Sequence record: PP047754
DNA: 64,000 nucleotides
Reading direction: 5' to 3' (one strand)
Source: Escherichia phage KEP4
This document shows, in pieces, positions 8,246-55,735 of this stretch (position 1 is the first letter of the stretch; every line of letters starts with the position of its first letter). The notes under the pieces are model-generated. The model did not search any database. It saw only the letters and a program-made list of their open reading frames with translations, and was not told the origin of the DNA. The translations under genes were made by a program, and so were the position numbers.

Positions 8246-8337
8246 ATTCAATAAACGGGGTTTACTTCTTCAATAAACCCCGTATACTTCATTCCATAAG
8301 CAGCACAACACTGACTCTGAAATGAAGGAACTACATC
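8246..8337 (+). promoter_or_regulatory. early promoter + stem-loop cassette (PeSL-like), copy 1
   Basis: ttattcaataaa - hairpin cgggg/ccccg - TTTACT (8261-8266) - 17 bp - TATACT (8284-8289) - conserved leader aggaactacatc - ATG. Confidence 0.55.
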
Positions 8338-10581: not shown

Positions 10582-11202
10582 TCAATGTCTAGCGGGGAGA
10601 ACTCCCACTGGTTCGATACCTTCCATCACCAGGGAGTTCACCCCAACATCACTCATTCGAATCCATACTTTACCGCCTGGTCTTATTTCATAGATGTTCA
10701 TTTCATTACCCACAGCAGATCCATTAACGAAAACACCCTGAGTGGCAATTCGGATCGGAGATTTGGTGTTATTAACTATCTGAAATGATATTGCAACGTC
10801 TCTGGTGATTTCTACGTCCCTTGCTTGAGTATTCCTTCTGAGTTTGTCAAAGAAAGAAGGGTTGAAAGTCGCTATGATGCTATTATTCTGAGAGTAATAA
10901 ATACTTGCGGATAGATATGGGATCTTTCCTTCGTCACCTTTCCTCAATAGGGGAATCGTGGTTTTCCAGTATGGTCTCAGTGACTGGTTGTTATCATCAA
11001 AACAACCAACAGCTTGAAGAGTCTGGAAGTTCTGAAAATCAGATACTACTTGATTCAGAATATTTTTATTGCATTTATCAATGTCGGCTGAGATGTTAAC
11101 AGGTATGGTTCTGATTTCAGGATCCCAGAGGTCGGTTACAGAAATGACGGACGTGACAAAGATACGGCAACTTGTGAGTGCAAGCACCATTATCATCGTC
11201 AT
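10582..11202 (-). CDS. membrane-anchored or lipoprotein-like protein (start uncertain)
   Basis: 232-codon reverse ORF with no competing forward ORF; hydrophobic N-terminus MTMIMVLALTSC with lipobox-like LTSC; ORF-track start 11280 is a TTG, ATG at 11202 chosen. Confidence 0.4.
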   Translation of the reverse strand: MTMIMVLALTSCRIFVTSVISVTDLWDPEIRTIPVNISADIDKCNKNILNQVVSDFQNFQTLQAVGCFDDNNQSLRPYWKTTIPLLRKGDEGKIPYLSASIYYSQNNSIIATFNPSFFDKLRRNTQARDVEITRDVAISFQIVNNTKSPIRIATQGVFVNGSAVGNEMNIYEIRPGGKVWIRMSDVGVNSLVMEGIEPVGVLPARH

Positions 11203-11265
11203 GATCCATTTTCTGAATCCGCGTATCAGGAACACTAAAACGTTCTCCACAGCAAAGGTGCTAAC

Positions 11266-26874: not shown

Positions 26875-26986
26875 AATCCCCAATATTTATTGGGGATTTT
26901 TACTTTTAGGGGTTTACTTCTTCTAAAGAATATCCTATTATTCAATAACTGGCTAACGTGGGGTTGGCTAGAAAAGGAGATACAAA
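26875..26986 (+). promoter_or_regulatory. early promoter + stem-loop cassette (PeSL-like), copy 2
   Basis: Hairpin aatcccc/ggggatt + TTTTT, TTTACT (26913-26918) - 17 bp - TATTAT (26936-26941), ttattcaataa box, AAAAGGAGA RBS. Confidence 0.5.
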
Positions 26987-28029: not shown

Positions 28030-28479
28030 ATGTTTCTTACATCCTTTATTGACTGGATGAATATCATAAATGGCCTGAGGATTCCTGTTGGGAATCTTGG
28101 GCTTTCTCGTTCTTCTATGCCGCAAATCGATACCGACAAACAAGAAGATTTTCACAAATATCTTGAAGACAACGGCGTGTCCATAGATGCTGCGCAAGTG
28201 CCCATCAAAATGCTTCGTCTTACCCAGAACGAAATCAATAAAATGAAGGTCTGGAAGATCATGAAGCAAATCAGAAATAAGAAACCTATGGGTAGAGTTT
28301 GGGTGTCTTCTGACAATTACGTTGTTGACGGTTCTCACCGATTTGTCGCTGCGTTGAACATGGATGGTAAACAGCGCATGAAGGTCTACAAAGTTGATTT
28401 GCCTGCGATGGAATTCGTAAAACTCGCCAAACAATTTCATGGTGTGCGGTACAGAACGGTCAGCGATACCCGTTTCTGA
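28030..28479 (+). CDS. ParB-like nuclease domain protein, 149 aa
   Basis: VVDGSHRFVAA resembles the ParB/Srx DGxHR box; GAGGTG RBS. Confidence 0.45.
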   Translation: MFLTSFIDWMNIINGLRIPVGNLGLSRSSMPQIDTDKQEDFHKYLEDNGVSIDAAQVPIKMLRLTQNEINKMKVWKIMKQIRNKKPMGRVWVSSDNYVVDGSHRFVAALNMDGKQRMKVYKVDLPAMEFVKLAKQFHGVRYRTVSDTRF

Positions 28480-28558
28480 ATACGATAGTTTATTGAAACC
28501 CTTTACTCAACATGGTGAGTCGACTATCATTTTATCCAATGAAATAAGGAGAATCACC

Positions 28559-29248
28559 ATGAAACGTTTAATCCTCGGGGTTGTGCTGGCAGGTCTGGCA
28601 TTACCCGCCGCCGCCAAGCTGAACTCCACAGGTGACAAACTGTGGTCTGATCTTTCCTACTGTGCTGGGTTCTCCCAGGCGGTCGCTATCGACAAGTCCG
28701 GTTCCATAGAGAATTTCGCTGAACTTTGGAACACGGGTAACGTCTCCACTGCTGTTGTTAATGCTGGGATTGAGTTCAACCGTTACAAACAGGGAGCCTA
28801 CAACTTGAAAGGCTACCTGAATGACGATGAATTTAACCGAGGAGGCATGGAGGCTGGCGATCTCATCATGACTGGCCGTATGGGCACACAAGGCCGTATG
28901 ACTGTAAGGCAATGCCGTTCTCTCCCCTCTCCGGCATTACAGAAGGGTGTGCAAATCGGGCGTCGACATTTGGATCTGATCAATGATGGCAACCAATGCA
29001 TCAAGGTGTTTGAATATAGTGCCGACCAAGAATCAGATCGACGTTTGAAAAAGGAATGGCGGACACGTGCCCTTGGATTGAGAGCATGGCTCGTAGAAAA
29101 CGATTATTACTACGAGGATCGTGTTCAGAACGGATTGAAAGATCTTTCTACTAATTTGTCTGTCAATCTAGACGACCCAAGGCTTTCGCGTGAACTCAAG
29201 CAAACACGGATTGACTGCGACAATATGATGAAGGAGAACGAAAGATGA
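28559..29248 (+). CDS. secreted/periplasmic protein with signal peptide, 229 aa
   Basis: AAGGAGA RBS; N-terminus MKRLILGVVLAGLALPAAAK is a classic Sec signal peptide. Confidence 0.55.
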   Translation: MKRLILGVVLAGLALPAAAKLNSTGDKLWSDLSYCAGFSQAVAIDKSGSIENFAELWNTGNVSTAVVNAGIEFNRYKQGAYNLKGYLNDDEFNRGGMEAGDLIMTGRMGTQGRMTVRQCRSLPSPALQKGVQIGRRHLDLINDGNQCIKVFEYSADQESDRRLKKEWRTRALGLRAWLVENDYYYEDRVQNGLKDLSTNLSVNLDDPRLSRELKQTRIDCDNMMKENER

Positions 29249-29565
29249 GAAACATAATATTCTTGTTATTCTTTTCTATGTTGGCATCATTCCAAGTTGT
29301 GGCAACTCCGGCTAGCAAATTGAATATCTGTGCGGCCTGGTTGTCTACTTATCAACAATTTCACCCTGATGATAAAGATACATCCATCCTTTTATCAGAT
29401 TATGAAGGTGAGTTGAAACGCCTTGATCTCTACAGCGTGGATCAAATAGAGAATGCTTTGGATTTGCCAATGATGGAGTCCGCTGCCGACAATAGCAAAC
29501 AGACGATCAAAGATCTGACTATGTGTCGGGAAATAGCGACTAATTTCGTTGGAAATCAAAGATAA
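29245..29565 (+). CDS. small secreted/periplasmic protein with signal peptide, 106 aa
   Basis: Overlaps previous gene by ATGA; N-terminus MRNIIFLLFFSMLASFQVVA. Confidence 0.5.
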   Translation: MRNIIFLLFFSMLASFQVVATPASKLNICAAWLSTYQQFHPDDKDTSILLSDYEGELKRLDLYSVDQIENALDLPMMESAADNSKQTIKDLTMCREIATNFVGNQR

Positions 29566-29615
29566 TTTTCAGGTTAAAATTTAACTTCCATTGAACTGAA
29601 AGGAAATACTTCGTG

Positions 29616-30578
29616 ATGATTATTACTAAAAAGATCGCCGAATCGATCGTTGAAAAGAATAAGATGTTCGCGCCCAACAAAGCAAAGGTCATTCTGATTC
29701 ACGAAGACGGGCGCGTCATCTTCGCTGAGAAGTTTGAGCAGGGTTGTGCTTTCTGGTTCGCAGATACTATGCGCGAAAGCAAGCTGCAGGGCATCATCTA
29801 TAAATTGACTCTGGTTGCCAAGCGCAATGATCAGGGTGATTGGGTTACGGTCTGCGATTTCAGCTCTAAAGTTGAAACTAAACCCAAAACCCGCCAAGAA
29901 AGGATTTTAGAGGCTCAGGAAAAACTTCGAGTCGCTCGCACATCATCCGCGGAGAAGCCGGAAATCAAACCAGCCGTTATGCCTGTCACCAAACTGCCTC
30001 CAGTGAGTGAAAAATCTGTTGAGCAGTACGCCGAGAAGCGCAAGGGTGACGGCATGTCTGTTTCTAAGATGTGTAAGATTGTTGAGCCTTTTAAGGGCGA
30101 TTCTCCACATGAGCCGAATCCAGTATCTGAATCCCAGCGTTTGGTGAAACTGGAAGACGGCCATGTTGTGGAGAAGTCTGTTTTGACAGTAGAACCGTTC
30201 TTTCCAGATACAGCAAAAGTCAAATCGCTGGCTGAAAAAGTTCACGGTTCAGAATTCATCTCCCTGCGCGAACTCGAACCACCTACCCGCCGCCGGATCG
30301 CAAATGAGTTATTTGTGTCTTTCAGACCTGACGGGAAGATCATCCTGTGTAAAGCCCTGCGGGATTCTCTACCTTGGACAACCTTGAACATGGTAGTGAC
30401 ACGCGACTTCAATAGATTCGGTATCATGCAAGGCAAGGATTACAACGTTAACCAGAGCGGCACTTACGTCAATCGTGCCATGTGTTCCAAGTTGGTCTTC
30501 CCTGAAGATACCGGAACCATACGTGTTCGTTTAGAATGGGATGAAACCCTGAACATGTATGTTGGTGATATAAAATAA
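29616..30578 (+). CDS. hypothetical protein, 320 aa
   Basis: AAAGGAAA RBS; ATG 29616 (GTG 29613 also possible). Confidence 0.5.
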   Translation: MIITKKIAESIVEKNKMFAPNKAKVILIHEDGRVIFAEKFEQGCAFWFADTMRESKLQGIIYKLTLVAKRNDQGDWVTVCDFSSKVETKPKTRQERILEAQEKLRVARTSSAEKPEIKPAVMPVTKLPPVSEKSVEQYAEKRKGDGMSVSKMCKIVEPFKGDSPHEPNPVSESQRLVKLEDGHVVEKSVLTVEPFFPDTAKVKSLAEKVHGSEFISLRELEPPTRRRIANELFVSFRPDGKIILCKALRDSLPWTTLNMVVTRDFNRFGIMQGKDYNVNQSGTYVNRAMCSKLVFPEDTGTIRVRLEWDETLNMYVGDIK

Positions 30579-30590
30579 TTCAATAACATT

Positions 30591-30620
30591 AAGGCGGTTA
30601 TTATTAAACCGCCTTTTATT
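30591..30620 (+). terminator. rho-independent terminator
   Basis: ggcggtt-attatta-aaccgcc hairpin followed by TTTTATTT. Confidence 0.6.
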
Positions 30621-31305: not shown

Positions 31306-31593
31306 ATGTCCGGCGTATGGTGTGATGTATTATTAGTGAGATTTTCAAATGGGATGGATAACCAGATTATTTCATTCTTTTATCCTGTTCCCTTTTCTTC
31401 TATGGGTCTGACTGTCAAGCGCGTTCTTGACATAGAAGAAAACCTCAACGCTATGCCGTATATGGCGCGACCACACGTGCTGGGTTGTGAACTGTTAAAC
31501 GAAATGATGATTGATGAGAATCTTGTTGAAACAATTATCACGCGTGAACAGATGAAAACCATACTGGCTCAGGGAGAACCCCATGTCGAATAA
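31306..31593 (+). CDS. hypothetical protein, 95 aa
   Basis: ATG after GGAGGTG; ORF-track start 31264 is an alternative codon. Confidence 0.4.
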   Translation: MSGVWCDVLLVRFSNGMDNQIISFFYPVPFSSMGLTVKRVLDIEENLNAMPYMARPHVLGCELLNEMMIDENLVETIITREQMKTILAQGEPHVE

Positions 31594-31903
31594 ACCGTTT
31601 GAACTTAAATTTCGCGTTTGGCATATTCCCCAGGTTCCTGGGATCGCTTTTCATGTTGAGGTTCCAACATTTGAAGAAGCGCAGCGCCTGAAGAATGCTC
31701 TGGGTGATTATGATTTGTTCCAGTTCAACAACAATATCAAGCCGGATTATTGCAATGCTTCGGGCATTCAGATTTATCAACATGATCTGACCGATGATGA
31801 TCTTAATGATATGGGTCTGGATGATCGTTGGGTTGATATGGAAGATGTTGACGAACTCAACGATTATTTCGAGCATCTGCGCAGTACAGGGTGGGAAATA
31901 TGA
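31583..31903 (+). CDS. small acidic protein, 106 aa (DNA-mimic-like composition)
   Basis: AGGGAGAA RBS; C-terminal half very Asp/Glu-rich (DLTDDDLNDMGLDDRWVDMEDVDELNDYFEHL). Confidence 0.45.
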   Translation: MSNKPFELKFRVWHIPQVPGIAFHVEVPTFEEAQRLKNALGDYDLFQFNNNIKPDYCNASGIQIYQHDLTDDDLNDMGLDDRWVDMEDVDELNDYFEHLRSTGWEI

Positions 31904-32208
31904 TTTCAAAATATATTGTAAAGCCTGGGGATACTCTGTCCAGGATCGCTCTAAAATTATATGGTGATGCCCAACAGTATATCAAATTAGCCAGATTCAA
32001 CAATATCCAAAACCCAGGCCATATCACGGTTGGTCAGATTATTTGTTTACCCACACCTGTCGAAGACAAAGAACACATTATGATTCCGGTTCAACCGACT
32101 CAGAAGTGTTTGGATGCGATAGCTGGTTTATTTCGGCCAGGTTTTTGTGATGGAACTATTGAACGTCACATTTATCAAGCGATTGTGGAAAACGCAGGTG
32201 TAAAATGA
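31900..32208 (+). CDS. LysM domain protein, 102 aa
   Basis: YIVKPGDTLSRIALKLYGDAQQYIKLARFNNIQNPGHITVGQIICLP matches the LysM peptidoglycan-binding motif. Confidence 0.6.
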   Translation: MISKYIVKPGDTLSRIALKLYGDAQQYIKLARFNNIQNPGHITVGQIICLPTPVEDKEHIMIPVQPTQKCLDAIAGLFRPGFCDGTIERHIYQAIVENAGVK

Positions 32209-32414
32209 TCGGATTAATTCGTTACCTGTTCATATTCGTAATTTCAACATTCATTTTATTTTTCTTTTTCAAATACTTGAAAGAGACTAAAATCTACCGA
32301 AGTAAACGTTGGCGCAAACGGGTGAGGGTAACTTTCCTGCTGCTGATTTCTTCGGTTACAATAACCGCACTCACATTGGGTGCATATATCTACATTTTTG
32401 AAGGGGTACATTGA
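32205..32414 (+). CDS. small membrane protein with two predicted TM helices, 69 aa
   Basis: Hydrophobic segments LFIFVISTFILFFFF and VTFLLLISSVTITALTLGAYIYIF separated by a basic loop; start and stop overlap both neighbours. Confidence 0.45.
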   Translation: MIGLIRYLFIFVISTFILFFFFKYLKETKIYRSKRWRKRVRVTFLLLISSVTITALTLGAYIYIFEGVH

Positions 32415-33205
32415 TGTTCAAGAAATTGGTGTTCGGTGCAATTATGGTTCTGGCTGCAAGTCTACTTTCTGGTTGTGGCGGCGTTATCGATGAAGGTAAT
32501 GTCGGCGTTCGCACCCAATGGGGTGAAGTAGACATGAACCCTGTAACAGCGGGGATCTACACCAGCTTTGTTTCAAGCGTGGATGTTTACACGACCAAAG
32601 AAGCCGTTGTGAGTCTGACTAAAATGACGCCAAAGGCCAAAGACAACCTGACTCTGGAAGACTTGGATGTGGATGTTTATTACACACCCAATGTCGCAAA
32701 GGTTCCGTGGTTCCATACCAAATTTGCTGGCCAGAGCGCCGAACTCGATGATGGCACGATAGCGGTGGGTTTCAATCTAGTTAAAACTGCTGCAGCATCT
32801 TCTTCGATGGACGCCGTTTCTTCTCTTGATTCTATGACAATTCACACCCAACGTGCTGAATTAGAGAAGATGATTAAAGACCGCACTCAGCAACAATTAG
32901 AGACTGCTGCGCCTGGCATGTTCACAATCACACGCGTGTTGGTCAAAAAGGCGCTGACGGATCCTTCTATTGAGCAGTCTATCCGTGATAATGTTATGGC
33001 GGACAAACGATTGGATACGGCAAGAAAGAACGTTGAAATTCGCGAGCAAGAAGCCCAAGCGAACCAGAAACTGACCACTTCGCTGACGCCTGAATATCTT
33101 CAACATGAATATAACATGGTATTACAATCATGTGCCAATAGTGGAAAATGTACTCTGATCGTTGACGGATCCGGCTCAGGTAAAATGCTGAACGTCGGCA
33201 AATAA
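32414..33205 (+). CDS. SPFH/band-7 (HflK/C-, stomatin-like) lipoprotein, 263 aa
   Basis: Lipoprotein signal MFKKLVFGAIMVLAASLLSGC (lipobox LSGC), then GNVGVRTQWGEV SPFH-type N-terminal motif and coiled-coil region. Confidence 0.5.
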   Translation: MFKKLVFGAIMVLAASLLSGCGGVIDEGNVGVRTQWGEVDMNPVTAGIYTSFVSSVDVYTTKEAVVSLTKMTPKAKDNLTLEDLDVDVYYTPNVAKVPWFHTKFAGQSAELDDGTIAVGFNLVKTAAASSSMDAVSSLDSMTIHTQRAELEKMIKDRTQQQLETAAPGMFTITRVLVKKALTDPSIEQSIRDNVMADKRLDTARKNVEIREQEAQANQKLTTSLTPEYLQHEYNMVLQSCANSGKCTLIVDGSGSGKMLNVGK

Positions 33206-43222: not shown

Positions 43223-43326
43223 ATTATTCAATAAAAGGGGCGTTTGCCCCTTTACTTCTTCAATAACCCACGTATAATTCTAAACATAAGCAGTACGACA
43301 CCAACTTGAAAAGCAGGAACTATATC
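43223..43326 (+). promoter_or_regulatory. early promoter + stem-loop cassette (PeSL-like), copy 3
   Basis: ttattcaataaa - hairpin ggggc-gttt-gcccc - TTTACT (43251-43256) - 16 bp - TATAAT (43273-43278) - leader aggaactatatc - ATG. Confidence 0.6.
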
Positions 43327-49150: not shown

Positions 49151-49321
49151 AGGCCTCATTCTACGAGGCCTTTTAAAATACTTCAAAAATAATTTAAAAA
49201 TTTATTGAAAAAGACTTTACTCTTCAATAATCATGCACTATTATAGTTCACATAGGGCGGTACACAACACCCCGCCGAATGAAAAGTGAAACGACCCAAC
49301 TACATTATGAGGAATTACATC
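49151..49321 (+). promoter_or_regulatory. terminator + early promoter cassette (PeSL-like), copy 4
   Basis: Hairpin aggcctc-attctac-gaggcct + TTTT, TTTACT (49216-49221) - 17 bp - TATTAT (49239-49244), leader aggaattacatc - ATG. Confidence 0.55.
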
Positions 49322-50049: not shown

Positions 50050-50118
50050 TCGACACTAAATCCTCAAGTTCGACTTTCACTTTAAATACCTTCGCATACA
50101 TTGCGGAGGTATTTTCTT

Positions 50119-50913
50119 ATGGCCATTCTAAAACTTGGCAACCGAGGTTCTGAAGTCAAAGCACTTCAACAAAGCCTCAACAAAATCGGTTTCTCCCTTA
50201 CAGCCGATGGCATATTTGGTAAAGCAACAGAGAATGCAGTCAAATCCGTTCAGGCAGGTGCTGGATTGGTTATTGATGGTATTGCTGGGCCAAAGACCTT
50301 CTATGCTATCCGCAACGCTGGAGACGCTCACCAGGAACATCTGACCGAAGCGGACTTGGTTGACGCAGCACGTGAACTTGGTGTTGAGCTGGCCAGTATG
50401 AAAGCTGTGAATCAGGTAGAATCCCGTGGCACGGGTTTTACCAAAACTGGCAAGATCAAAACTCTGTTTGAGCGCCACATCATGTACAAAAAGGTGACGG
50501 CCAAATTCGGGCAAGCAAGAGCCAATGCTCTGTACCAACTCTACCCAACATTGGTTAACCCCAATTCTGGCGGGTATATCGGCGGAGACGCGGAGTTGGA
50601 ACGCCTTCAGGGTGCAATCGCCCTTGACGAGGACTGCGCTTACGAGAGTGCTTCCTACGGCCTATTCCAGATCATGGGGTTCAACTGCCAAATCTGTGGA
50701 TATCCAAATGCCAAAGAGATGTTCACTGATTTCCTGACTGGTGAACGCGCTCATCTTCTGGCATTTGTCAAGTTCATCAAGGCTGATGCCAATATGTGGA
50801 AAGCCCTGAAGAACAAGAATTGGGCCGAGTTTGCTCGTCGGTACAATGGTCCGGCATATGCGAAAAACCAGTATGATACTAAACTGGCGGCAGCATACAA
50901 GAGTTTCTGCTAA
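50119..50913 (+). CDS. endolysin: N-terminal peptidoglycan-binding domain + C-terminal muramidase-like domain
   Basis: GGAGG RBS; LKLGNRGSEVKALQQSLNKIGF ... DGIFGKATENAVKSVQ (PG_binding_1-like); C-terminal YGLFQIMGFN ... WAEFARRYNGP. Confidence 0.7.
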   Translation: MAILKLGNRGSEVKALQQSLNKIGFSLTADGIFGKATENAVKSVQAGAGLVIDGIAGPKTFYAIRNAGDAHQEHLTEADLVDAARELGVELASMKAVNQVESRGTGFTKTGKIKTLFERHIMYKKVTAKFGQARANALYQLYPTLVNPNSGGYIGGDAELERLQGAIALDEDCAYESASYGLFQIMGFNCQICGYPNAKEMFTDFLTGERAHLLAFVKFIKADANMWKALKNKNWAEFARRYNGPAYAKNQYDTKLAAAYKSFC

Positions 50914-55637: not shown

Positions 55638-55735
55638 AGCCCCTCAATGAGGGGCTTTACTTTTGAAACCTTTCCGCCTATACTTCCCAGTAATTCATTG
55701 GCAAACGCCACAAATTGAATAGCAGGAACTATATC
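55638..55735 (+). promoter_or_regulatory. early promoter + stem-loop cassette (PeSL-like), copy 5
   Basis: Hairpin agcccctc-aat-gaggggct, TTTACT (55656-55661) - 17 bp - TATACT (55679-55684), leader aggaactatatc - ATG. Confidence 0.6.

What the first reader, a model, noticed from the sequence alone, without database searches (positions are those of the whole stretch)
28030..29565. ParB-like protein followed by two overlapping signal-peptide proteins
A ParB/Srx-fold candidate (VVDGSHR) is followed by two exported proteins (229 and 106 aa) whose genes overlap by ATGA. Small periplasmic phage proteins in T4-like phages include the RI antiholin and superinfection-exclusion factors, and the 106-aa protein is RI-sized. 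The trio may be a lysis-inhibition or exclusion unit.
Basis: inference. Interest (0 to 1): 0.5.

Follow-up and report, generated by a model that had tools for sequence, protein, structure and literature searches.

The report
Exported phage protein pair mislabelled spanins
A Salmonella phage of the Vi01 group carries two coupled genes for small proteins that are secreted into the space between the bacterial membranes; many public records call them cell-bursting "spanins", but they lack the features that define spanins, their real job is unknown, and the ParB-like gene next door is an unrelated neighbour.

Summary
At 28030-29565 lie a 149-aa ParB/Srx-like gene (VVDGSHR present), then a 229-aa and a 106-aa gene, each with an N-terminal signal peptide, overlapping by ATGA. 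The window is a Kuttervirus (Ackermannviridae, Vi01-like), not a T4-type phage.

The "trio" reading is not supported. The ParB-like gene is basic, has no signal peptide and no Cys, and occurs in many more phages. Where the pair is absent it sits directly beside the replication helicase. The pair has its own sigma-70-type promoter (28502-28530), part of a motif family found 6 times against 0.32 expected.

Many public records call the pair i-/o-spanin. That label traces to one student annotation of phage Marshall, flagged as doubtful in the published spreadsheet. It fails the defining tests:
- no lipobox in 30 of 37 family representatives, including this one;
- short h-regions followed by conserved AxA cleavage sites instead of membrane anchors;
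- no coiled coil;
- the small protein is a confident, acidic five-helix bundle with two invariant Cys.

No sequence or fold match to T4 RI or Spackle was found.

Best reading: a soluble, disulfide-bonded periplasmic two-protein binding module, possibly Spackle-like in role. Its function is untested.

The parts
28030..28479 (+). ParB/Srx-like protein: 149 aa, pI 9.9, no Cys, no signal peptide. It is cytoplasmic and a neighbour of the exported pair, not part of it.
   Evidence: ORF. DGSHR and LRLTQNEINK are invariant. phrog_1033 'ParB-like' is hit by 15 of 19 members, best E 1.5e-6. pI. Wider distribution and helicase adjacency.
28502..28530 (+). Sigma-70-type promoter-like site, TTTACT-N17-TATCAT, 29 nt upstream of the 229-aa gene.
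   Evidence: The motif family TTTACT-N16-18-TATNNT occurs 6 times, all on the + strand, against 0.32 expected; 0 of 100 shuffles reach 6. It is retained in PS5 downstream of the homing-endonuclease insertion. Function is inferred.
28546..28551 (+). Shine-Dalgarno AAGGAG, 7 nt before the ATG at 28559.
   Evidence: Read directly from the sequence.
28559..29248 (+). Large exported protein: 229-aa precursor, 210-aa mature form, pI 6.8, four invariant Cys (35, 119, 147, 220). The N-domain (about 20-128) is universal in the family. The C-domain (about 129-229) is helical and is missing in some genera.
   Evidence: It hits phrog_4260 (unknown function) only.
28559..28615 (+). Predicted Sec signal peptide of the large protein, MKRLILGVVLAGLALPAAA|K.
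   Evidence: The uncharged run is 13-17 residues, ends with Pro-Ala-x-Ala and has no lipobox in 17 of 17 members. Distant members keep ASA|A, ANA|G or AWS|E sites.
29231..29236 (+). Shine-Dalgarno AAGGAG inside the end of the upstream gene, 8 nt before the ATG at 29245. Suggests translational coupling.
29245..29565 (+). Small exported protein: 106-aa precursor, 86-aa mature form, 9.7 kDa, pI 4.5, invariant Cys29 and Cys94, predicted five-helix bundle.
   Evidence: AlphaFold2 mean pLDDT is 86, above 90 across the mature part. Its only structural relative is an uncharacterised protein of Erwinia phage phiEa2809, which also carries the ParB-like gene.
29245..29304 (+). Predicted Sec signal peptide of the small protein, MRNIIFLLFFSMLASFQVVA|TP. 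It has no Cys and therefore no lipobox.
   Evidence: The sequence is hypervariable, with a small residue (Ala in nearly all members) at -1 and Pro at +2. A lipobox-like motif occurs in only 7 of 37 representatives.
29613..30578 (+). 321-aa protein without a signal peptide, of unknown function (phrog_3828). Probably co-transcribed with the pair.
   Evidence: It follows the pair directly in 21 of 25 loci. No terminator lies between it and the pair.
30591..30615 (+). Intrinsic-terminator-like hairpin (9-bp stem followed by a T-run) closing the putative unit.

Best explanation
Two separate things lie in the interval.

(1) 28030-28479 encodes a small, basic, cytoplasmic ParB/Srx-superfamily protein. 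It belongs to the conserved replication/recombination backbone of Ackermannviridae (clamp loader ... ParB-like ... helicase ... RNase H). It most likely binds nucleic acid or nucleotides. It is a neighbour of what follows, not a partner.

(2) 28559-29565 encodes a translationally coupled pair of secreted proteins with its own sigma-70-type promoter, so early or middle expression by host RNA polymerase is likely. Both proteins carry classical Sec signal peptides with signal-peptidase-I sites. In this phage both are therefore released as soluble periplasmic proteins: a 210-aa two-domain protein with four invariant Cys, and an acidic 86-aa five-helix bundle with two invariant Cys. These would be oxidised to disulfides in the periplasm.

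I propose that the two assemble into a periplasmic complex that binds and neutralises an envelope target. The likeliest role is protecting the infected cell's wall or envelope. That could mean blocking the cell-wall-penetrating apparatus of superinfecting relatives, or restraining a peptidoglycan hydrolase until lysis. This would work like T4 Spackle while being unrelated to it.

The pair are not spanins.

Shown: gene structure, conservation, synteny, absence of lipobox and anchor, the fold of the small protein, and independence from the ParB-like gene.

Inferred: export and cleavage, disulfides, promoter activity and timing, complex formation.

Speculative: the target and the exclusion or protective role.
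For: Identity of the phage.

The pair is a unit. The order ParB-like -> large -> small holds in 25 of 25 loci, with overlapping or abutting stop and start codons. These loci span Kuttervirus and more distant Ackermannviridae lineages, including Serratia Miltonvirus KNP4, a 164-kb contig matching the Erwinia phage Bue1 record, and metagenomic relatives down to 28-34% identity.

The family is confined to roughly 150-165-kb Ackermannviridae genomes and fragments of them. A profile search of 1.84 billion representatives returned only 10 proteins.

Signal peptides:
- variable N-termini against conserved mature parts;
- conserved small -3/-1 residues;
- short h-regions.

Invariant, even-numbered Cys.

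Small protein: AlphaFold2 pLDDT 86, five helices, with Cys29 in the first helix and Cys94 in the last. It is acidic, pI 4.5.

General architecture mirrors T4 Spackle, as read from PMC7677548: a cleaved periplasmic localization signal, a 75-aa mature helical bundle and a Cys29-Cys81 disulfide.

A lipobox occurs in only 7 of 37 lineages. A family that works both tethered and soluble fits a binder or inhibitor. The MliC/PliC lysozyme inhibitors are the established precedent (my knowledge). It does not fit a membrane-bridging machine.

Promoter.

Not virion components: none of the three gene products appears in the Sajous1 CsCl-virion proteome.

ParB-like gene is independent: and homing-endonuclease insertions.
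Against: - No experiment exists on either protein.
- No homology or fold similarity to Spackle, RI or any characterised inhibitor was found.
- The model of the large protein is poor (pLDDT 45.6), so its fold is unknown.
- Complex formation rests only on gene coupling.
- Signal-peptide cleavage was judged by rules, not by a trained predictor.
- Promoter activity and timing are inferred from a motif.
- High conservation of the mature small protein across phages of different host genera could equally mean a conserved host target unrelated to exclusion.
- No canonical spanin was found elsewhere in the genome, which leaves room for a lysis role.
Confidence: 0.5

Rival explanations
1. The pair is a non-canonical two-component spanin that disrupts the outer membrane at the last step of lysis. 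This is what many public records say (i-spanin/o-spanin, 'Rz-like spanin' phrog_3843).
For: - Adjacent, overlapping genes for two envelope-targeted proteins with periplasmic Cys resemble 'separated' spanin pairs.
- Phage Marshall's orthologues are listed as a spanin pair in Kongari et al. 2018.
- A minority clade carries a good lipobox, L-I-A-G|C (7 of 37).
- A lipobox scan of the window plus the rest of the closest record found no other small lipoprotein next to a type II membrane protein.
- Vi01-like phages have no reliably identified spanin (PMC6509533).
Against: [quoted passage not shown] It is a singleton in both spanin family tables, has the longest combined periplasmic length of all (300 residues) and zero predicted coiled coil. 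Its 'o-spanin' is 56% helical, higher than any other listed there.
- 30 of 37 representatives, including this window, have no Cys in the signal peptide. No outer-membrane anchor is possible for them.
- The 'i-spanin' has a 12-13-residue h-region followed by P-A-x-A, conserved as AxA in distant members. That indicates cleavage, not anchoring.
- The small protein is a compact folded bundle with 3.5% Pro, unlike the short, largely unstructured lambda Rz1.
- phrog_3843 is 106 positions long and matches this family end to end, so its label is probably circular.
- The endolysin lies 20 kb away.
- The same centre later left the orthologues in phage Mutine as hypothetical proteins and stated that no spanin could be identified.
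- The promoter is sigma-70-like, and no late-type motif is nearby.
Confidence: 0.1
2. The 106-aa protein is an RI-like antiholin, and the pair controls lysis timing (lysis inhibition).
For: - Similar size to T4 RI (97 aa).
- Periplasmic location.
- Vi01-like phages carry rIIA/rIIB.
- A large plus small periplasmic pair is superficially reminiscent of holin T plus RI.
Against: - No Pfam hit to holin T or RI.
- The N-terminus is a classical cleavable signal peptide with a conserved small -1 residue and +2 Pro. RI instead has an uncleaved signal-anchor-release domain (my knowledge of T4 RI).
- The 229-aa protein lacks the cytoplasmic N-terminus and transmembrane domain of holin T.
- No holin has been identified in these phages.
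Confidence: 0.07
3. The pair is a host-takeover factor aimed at a conserved host periplasmic component, such as a protease, a lytic transglycosylase, an envelope-stress sensor or a step of LPS/O-antigen assembly. It would improve productive infection and would be unrelated to exclusion or lysis.
For: - The mature core of the small protein is almost invariant across phages infecting Salmonella, Escherichia, Klebsiella, Dickeya and Serratia, as expected for a conserved Enterobacterales target.
- The pair is absent from Vibrio Ackermannviridae.
- It lies in a variable island rich in envelope-directed genes: a small membrane protein, a LysM protein, and a 2-TM protein plus an SPFH lipoprotein.
- The promoter type suggests early or middle expression.
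Against: No candidate target was identified. There is no similarity to any known inhibitor or effector. With the present data this reading cannot be told apart from the favoured one.
Confidence: 0.25
4. All three genes (ParB-like plus the pair) form one functional module.
For: The order is conserved in 25 of 25 loci that have the pair, all on the same strand.
Against: - The ParB-like gene occurs without the pair in about 135 further phage records and directly abuts the helicase there.
- The compartments differ: cytoplasm against periplasm.
- A promoter lies between them.
- ~0.85-kb insertions are tolerated between them; the PS5 insert carries a homing-endonuclease motif.
Confidence: 0.05

Closest known systems
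Two-component spanins (lambda Rz/Rz1; T4 PseT.3/PseT.2)
   Same: Two adjacent, overlapping genes whose products are both targeted to the envelope and carry periplasmic Cys. The pair is annotated as spanins in many records and in PHROGs.
   Different: - No lipoprotein signal in most members, including this one.
- Cleavable signal peptide instead of a type II anchor.
- No coiled coil.
- Folded helical small subunit instead of a short, largely unstructured one.
- Not linked to the endolysin.
- Sigma-70-type promoter.
T4 Spackle (gp61.3), periplasmic inhibitor of the gp5 tail lysozyme
   Same: A phage-encoded protein of about 100 aa with a cleaved signal peptide. The mature form is a compact five-helix bundle of about 9.7 kDa held by one disulfide. 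In Spackle that is Cys29-Cys81; here the invariant residues are Cys29 and Cys94. Spackle is encoded by an early gene.
   Different: No detectable sequence or fold similarity. Here there is a second, larger, obligatorily coupled partner. The tail-associated cell-wall enzymes of this phage are of other types (CHAP and SLT annotations). No functional data exist.
T4 RI antiholin
   Same: Small periplasmic phage protein of similar length.
   Different: RI has an uncleaved signal-anchor-release domain and binds the periplasmic domain of holin T. Here the signal peptide is canonical, there is no similarity to RI, and no T-type holin is known in the genome.
MliC/PliC lysozyme-inhibitor families (analogy only)
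   Same: Homologues exist both as lipoproteins and as soluble periplasmic proteins. The small protein does the same: a lipobox in 7 of 37 lineages.
   Different: MliC and PliC are beta-rich and bacterial. No homology is claimed.
ParB/Srx superfamily (ParB N-terminal domain, DGQHR/DndB-like and DarB-associated ParB-like domains)
   Same: A DGxHR motif, an upstream LxLxxNE(I)NK box, and profile matches to phage ParB-like families. The domain also matches inside 'DarB-like antirestriction' proteins of Ralstonia phages.
   Different: It is a single 149-aa domain with no helix-turn-helix or dimerisation region, so it is not a partition ParB. The Pfam ParBc model is not reached. The fold was not modelled here.

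Membership tests
o-spanin (outer-membrane lipoprotein subunit) | Lipobox with the lipidated Cys at +1 of the mature protein. | tested here: not met
   The window protein has no Cys before residue 29. The predicted cleavage is VVA|TP. A lipobox-like motif is present in only 7 of 37 cluster representatives.
o-spanin (outer-membrane lipoprotein subunit) | Short, Pro-rich, largely unstructured periplasmic domain. | tested here: not met
   86 mature residues, 3.5% Pro, and a five-helix bundle with pLDDT above 90. The Marshall orthologue is 56% helical in Kongari's table.
i-spanin (type II inner-membrane subunit) | Uncleaved N-terminal transmembrane anchor. | tested here: not met
   A 12-13-residue h-region is followed by P-A-x-A|K. 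AxA-type sites are kept in distant members while the sequence varies. This is a rule-based judgement; no trained predictor was available.
i-spanin (type II inner-membrane subunit) | Periplasmic domain dominated by coiled-coil helices. | tested here: inconclusive
   Kongari's tables give 0 coiled-coil segments and 35% helix for the Marshall orthologue. My AlphaFold2 model is unreliable for residues 1-140.
Two-component spanin | Complements an Rz/Rz1 lysis defect, or loss gives spherical non-lysing cells. | not testable with these tools
   Needs a lambda RzRz1 complementation assay or a phage deletion mutant.
Two-component spanin | Linkage to a lysis cassette (usual, not obligatory). | tested here: not met
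   The endolysin is at 50101-50913, 20 kb downstream. No holin is known.
T4 RI antiholin | Sequence or fold homology to RI. | tested here: not met
   No Pfam hit. No RI chain in the PDB profile search. BFVD lists the JS98 'lysis inhibitor regulator' at E 3.4 and TM 0.24.
T4 RI antiholin | Signal-anchor-release N-terminal domain, and a holin T partner in the genome. | tested here: inconclusive
   The N-terminus looks like a classical cleaved signal peptide. The literature reports no identifiable holin in Vi01-like phages. I did not search the genome for holin T.
T4 Spackle | Sequence or fold homology to gp61.3. | tested here: not met
T4 Spackle | Binds and inhibits the tail-associated cell-wall hydrolase of superinfecting phage. 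| not testable with these tools
   Needs binding and activity assays, or multimer modelling, which was not available.
ParB/Srx superfamily | Conserved DGxHR-type motif and a profile match to ParB-like families. | tested here: met
   DGSHR is invariant. phrog_1033 is hit by 15 of 19 members, best E 1.5e-6. Weaker hits go to phrog_26754, phrog_8071 and phrog_620, all ParB-like. Pfam ParBc_2 and ddrB-ParB reach only E about 0.07-0.08.
ParB/Srx superfamily | ParB/Srx fold. | not tested
Partition ParB (centromere-binding CTPase) | Helix-turn-helix DNA-binding and C-terminal dimerisation domains, with a cognate ParA and parS. | tested here: not met
   The protein is a single 149-aa domain. No ParA is annotated nearby.

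The most novel reading that the evidence does not exclude
The pair is a previously unrecognised, anchor-less two-protein periplasmic system specific to Enterobacterales-infecting Ackermannviridae, built on a fold with no solved relative. It would either exclude superinfecting relatives by neutralising their wall-penetrating apparatus, making it a Spackle analogue that arose independently. Less likely, it takes part in the still unexplained outer-membrane and lysis step of a phage family in which no holin or spanin has been identified.
Probability: 0.25. Interest if true: 0.6.

Novelty: new variant of a known kind. Interest (0 to 1): 0.35.

Why it matters
Hundreds of Ackermannviridae genomes, many from phages proposed for Salmonella, E. 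coli O157, Klebsiella and Dickeya biocontrol, carry this pair. A growing share label it 'i-spanin/o-spanin/Rz-like spanin' through PHROGs-based pipelines. The label rests on one doubtful entry and fails the defining tests. It hides two open questions.

1. How does this phage family get through the outer membrane at lysis? No holin or spanin has been reliably identified.
2. What does a strictly conserved, secreted, disulfide-bonded protein pair do in the periplasm of the infected cell?

If the pair blocks superinfection by relatives, that bears on the design of cocktails that combine several Kuttervirus phages.

Tried and rejected
- **AlphaFold2 of the 229-aa protein** with the 17-sequence family alignment gave pLDDT 45.6. 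Only residues about 140-229 reached 70-85. Foldseek against the PDB gave nothing better than E 2.8, so those hits are meaningless.
- **Deepening the alignment:** a full HMMER profile scan of 1.84 billion representatives found only 10 proteins, all from the same family.
The afdb50 library was unavailable.
- **Profile searches** of both families against PDB sequences found nothing. Pfam, NCBIfam and PADLOC also gave nothing for either exported protein.
- **Internal paralogy:** I tested whether the small protein is a paralogue of either domain of the large one. Both show five helices with Cys in the first and last helix. hhalign probabilities were below 1% on domain-split profiles and 10.8% for a short N-terminal stretch, so I rejected this as unsupported.
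- **Late promoters:** the T4-type late promoter TATAAATA and the local variant CTAAATA are not enriched, and neither lies near the pair.
- **Literature:** I found no transcriptome for Kuttervirus and no experiment on these genes.
- **Coordinates:** the sal1 record's coordinates are valid for the region of interest only. Elsewhere the window differs: 97% identity at best over the first 25 kb, and an 11-nt shift near 10.6 kb.
Full report
**Source and anatomy**

The 3.1 kb around the finding is 100% identical to several Salmonella phages of the genus Kuttervirus (Ackermannviridae, Vi01-like), for example vB_SentM_sal1 and SeF3a. The rest of the window is a close but not identical relative, with 97% identity at best over the first 25 kb. 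The phage shares T4-like replication and morphogenesis genes but is not a T4-type phage.

The middle gene starts at 28559, which has AAGGAG 7 nt upstream, not at the upstream ATG at 28439. Its TGA overlaps the ATG of the last gene (ATGA, 29245-29248). A second AAGGAG lies 8 nt before that ATG.

**The ParB-like protein**

- It has 149 aa, pI 9.9, no Cys and no signal peptide.
- The family alignment has invariant LxLTQNE.NK and DGSHR motifs.
- Pfam and NCBIfam do not reach threshold, and a profile search against PDB sequences found nothing.
- 15 of 19 family members match the PHROG 'ParB-like partition protein', best E 1.5e-6, and others match further ParB-like PHROGs.

I accept ParB/Srx-superfamily membership at the sequence level. 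The fold was not modelled, and the single domain rules out a partition ParB.

The family is much wider than the downstream pair. It occurs in 415 phage records, including Vibrio, Aeromonas, Ralstonia and Pseudomonas phages, and it matches inside 'DarB-like antirestriction' proteins. In a Vibrio Ackermannviridae phage only an AP2-domain gene separates it from the 1.7-kb ORF that occupies the helicase position. In metagenomic relative L011 the helicase follows it directly, downstream of the clamp-loader genes. Neither has an exported pair. In another relative an RNA ligase and rIIA/rIIB follow it. So it belongs to the replication backbone.

**The two exported proteins are real, coupled and lineage-specific**

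Searches of 5.8 billion proteins, a full HMMER profile scan of 1.84 billion representatives, and tblastn of 50,697 phage records gave the same picture. Both families occur only in Ackermannviridae-type genomes of about 150-165 kb and fragments of them: 270 records for the large protein and 277 for the small one.

In 25 of 25 loci the order is ParB-like -> large -> small. These include Serratia Miltonvirus KNP4, a 164-kb contig matching the Erwinia phage Bue1 record, and two metagenomic lineages at about 30% identity. The large gene's stop overlaps the small gene's start by 4 nt in 23 loci and by 1 nt in two.

Only the N-terminal domain of the large protein (about residues 20-128, two Cys) is universal. 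The helical C-terminal domain (two more Cys) is missing in Miltonvirus and in the Bue1-like contig.

**Export**

Both N-termini have the classical tripartite layout: a basic n-region, a 12-13-residue h-region and small residues at -3 and -1. They read MKRLILGVVLAGLALPAAA|K and MRNIIFLLFFSMLASFQVVA|TP.

Across the small-protein family the signal region is hypervariable in sequence and length. The residue at -1 stays small (Ala in nearly all members), the Pro at +2 is nearly invariant, and the mature part is extremely conserved. Distant large-protein homologues keep ASA|A, ANA|G or AWS|E sites. There is no further hydrophobic segment.

Both proteins have even numbers of invariant Cys: 35, 119, 147 and 220 in the large one, and 29 and 94 in the small one. 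That fits periplasmic disulfides. Cleavage and oxidation are inferences, because no trained predictor was available.

**Structure**

The small protein models confidently, with pLDDT 86 overall and above 90 across the mature part. It has five helices, with Cys29 in the first and Cys94 in the last. The mature form is 9.7 kDa with pI 4.5.

The large protein modelled poorly (pLDDT 45.6), and its fold search is uninformative.

**The public 'spanin' label**

Several records call the pair i-spanin and o-spanin, or call the small protein 'Rz-like spanin'. PHROG phrog_3843 carries that name, and a comparative paper lists both as core genes.

The origin is the entry for phage Marshall in the supplementary tables of Kongari et al. 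2018. [quoted passage not shown] It is a singleton in both family tables, has the longest combined periplasmic length of all 2CS (300 residues) and has no predicted coiled coil. Its o-spanin is 56% helical, higher than any other listed there.

The o-spanin call rests on Marshall's lipobox LIAG|C. In my survey that motif exists in 7 of 37 cluster representatives and not in this window.

The other tests point the same way:
- the 'i-spanin' has a cleavable-looking signal peptide, not an anchor;
- the small protein is a folded acidic bundle with 3.5% Pro;
- the endolysin is 20 kb away;

A lipobox scan of the window plus the remainder of the closest record found only one credible lipoprotein, the SPFH/Band 7 protein at 32414-33205. 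This phage therefore has no recognisable canonical spanin. That keeps a small probability alive for a non-canonical lysis role.

**Transcription**

A motif TTTACT-N16-18-TATNNT, often with TTCAATAA in the spacer, occurs six times in the window. All six are on the + strand, against 0.32 expected, and 0 of 100 shuffles reach that number. One copy is at 28502-28530, inside the 79-nt gap between the ParB-like gene and the pair. PS5 keeps it downstream of a NUMOD3 homing-endonuclease insertion.

A terminator-like hairpin follows the next gene (321 aa, unknown function) at 30591-30615. T4-type late motifs are not nearby.

I infer a separate sigma-70-driven unit of the large gene, the small gene and the 321-aa gene, with read-through from upstream possible.

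None of the three proteins was seen in a CsCl-purified Kuttervirus virion proteome.

**Interpretation**

The data show a conserved, co-translated pair of secreted proteins that do not need a membrane tether. A minority lineage may have lipidated the small one. That pattern is known from binding and inhibitor proteins such as MliC/PliC (my knowledge), and it is incompatible with a membrane-bridging machine.

The small subunit shares the general design of T4 Spackle: a cleaved periplasmic localization signal, a mature helical bundle of about 9.7 kDa and one disulfide involving Cys29 (PMC7677548). It has no detectable homology to Spackle.

I therefore favour a soluble periplasmic heteromeric binder that neutralises an envelope target. 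Protection of the infected cell is the leading guess, whether by superinfection exclusion or by restraint of a wall hydrolase. A conserved host target is the close rival. The ParB-like gene is a bystander.

**Verdict**

- The current public annotation as spanins is not supported.
- Function remains untested.
- Interest is moderate to low as it stands. It would rise if the pair proves to be an independent Spackle-like system, or part of the unexplained lysis pathway of Ackermannviridae.

Noticed in passing
window 8261-8288, 26913-26941, 28502-28530, 43251-43278, 49216-49244, 55656-55684 (+): A promoter-like family, TTTACT-N16/17-TATNNT, often with TTCAATAA in the spacer. It occurs 6 times, all on the + strand, against 0.32 expected by shuffling. 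It is probably this phage's early/middle sigma-70 promoter class.
   Followed up: partly
window 32205-32414 and 32414-33205 (+); L010 6028-7028: A 69-aa ORF with two hydrophobic (probably membrane-spanning) segments is followed, with overlap, by an SPFH/Band 7 protein that has a canonical lipobox (LLSG|C). This was the only credible lipoprotein found in the scan. In metagenomic relative L010 these two genes follow the exported pair directly. The protein gave 3 spectra in a published Kuttervirus virion proteome.
   Followed up: partly
L002 3961-4794 (phage PS5); also L020 and L031: An insertion of about 0.85 kb lies between the ParB-like gene and the exported pair. The PS5 ORF carries a NUMOD3 motif, which marks a homing endonuclease. 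The end of the ParB-like gene's coding sequence appears duplicated at the junction.
   Followed up: partly
Ralstonia phages Claudette and RPZH3: The ParB-like domain matches (about 32% identity) inside proteins annotated 'DarB-like antirestriction'. This hints that the small Ackermannviridae protein is related to the ParB-like module of anti-restriction polyproteins.
   Followed up: no
window 10582-11235 (-): A 217-aa minus-strand gene (DUF7424) has a hydrophobic N-terminus ending in LTSC. It is a possible lipoprotein or membrane protein among + strand genes. The sal1 annotation coordinates are shifted by 11 nt here.
   Followed up: partly
L005 4128-4421 (Serratia phage KNP4): A 97-aa ORF with a lipobox-like FLAS|C lies just downstream of the pair in Miltonvirus. 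No counterpart to it was noticed in the window.
   Followed up: no
window 31583-31903 (+) and 31891-32208 (+): A P22 gp17-like 'superinfection exclusion' protein (phrog_1510) and a small LysM protein lie 2 kb downstream. They sit in the same variable island between the ParB-like gene and the helicase.
   Followed up: no
window 1-25000: The window is not identical to any record in the phage collection outside the region of interest. The best match is 97.2%, to phage SE14, so the source is a mosaic or unsampled Kuttervirus.
   Followed up: partly
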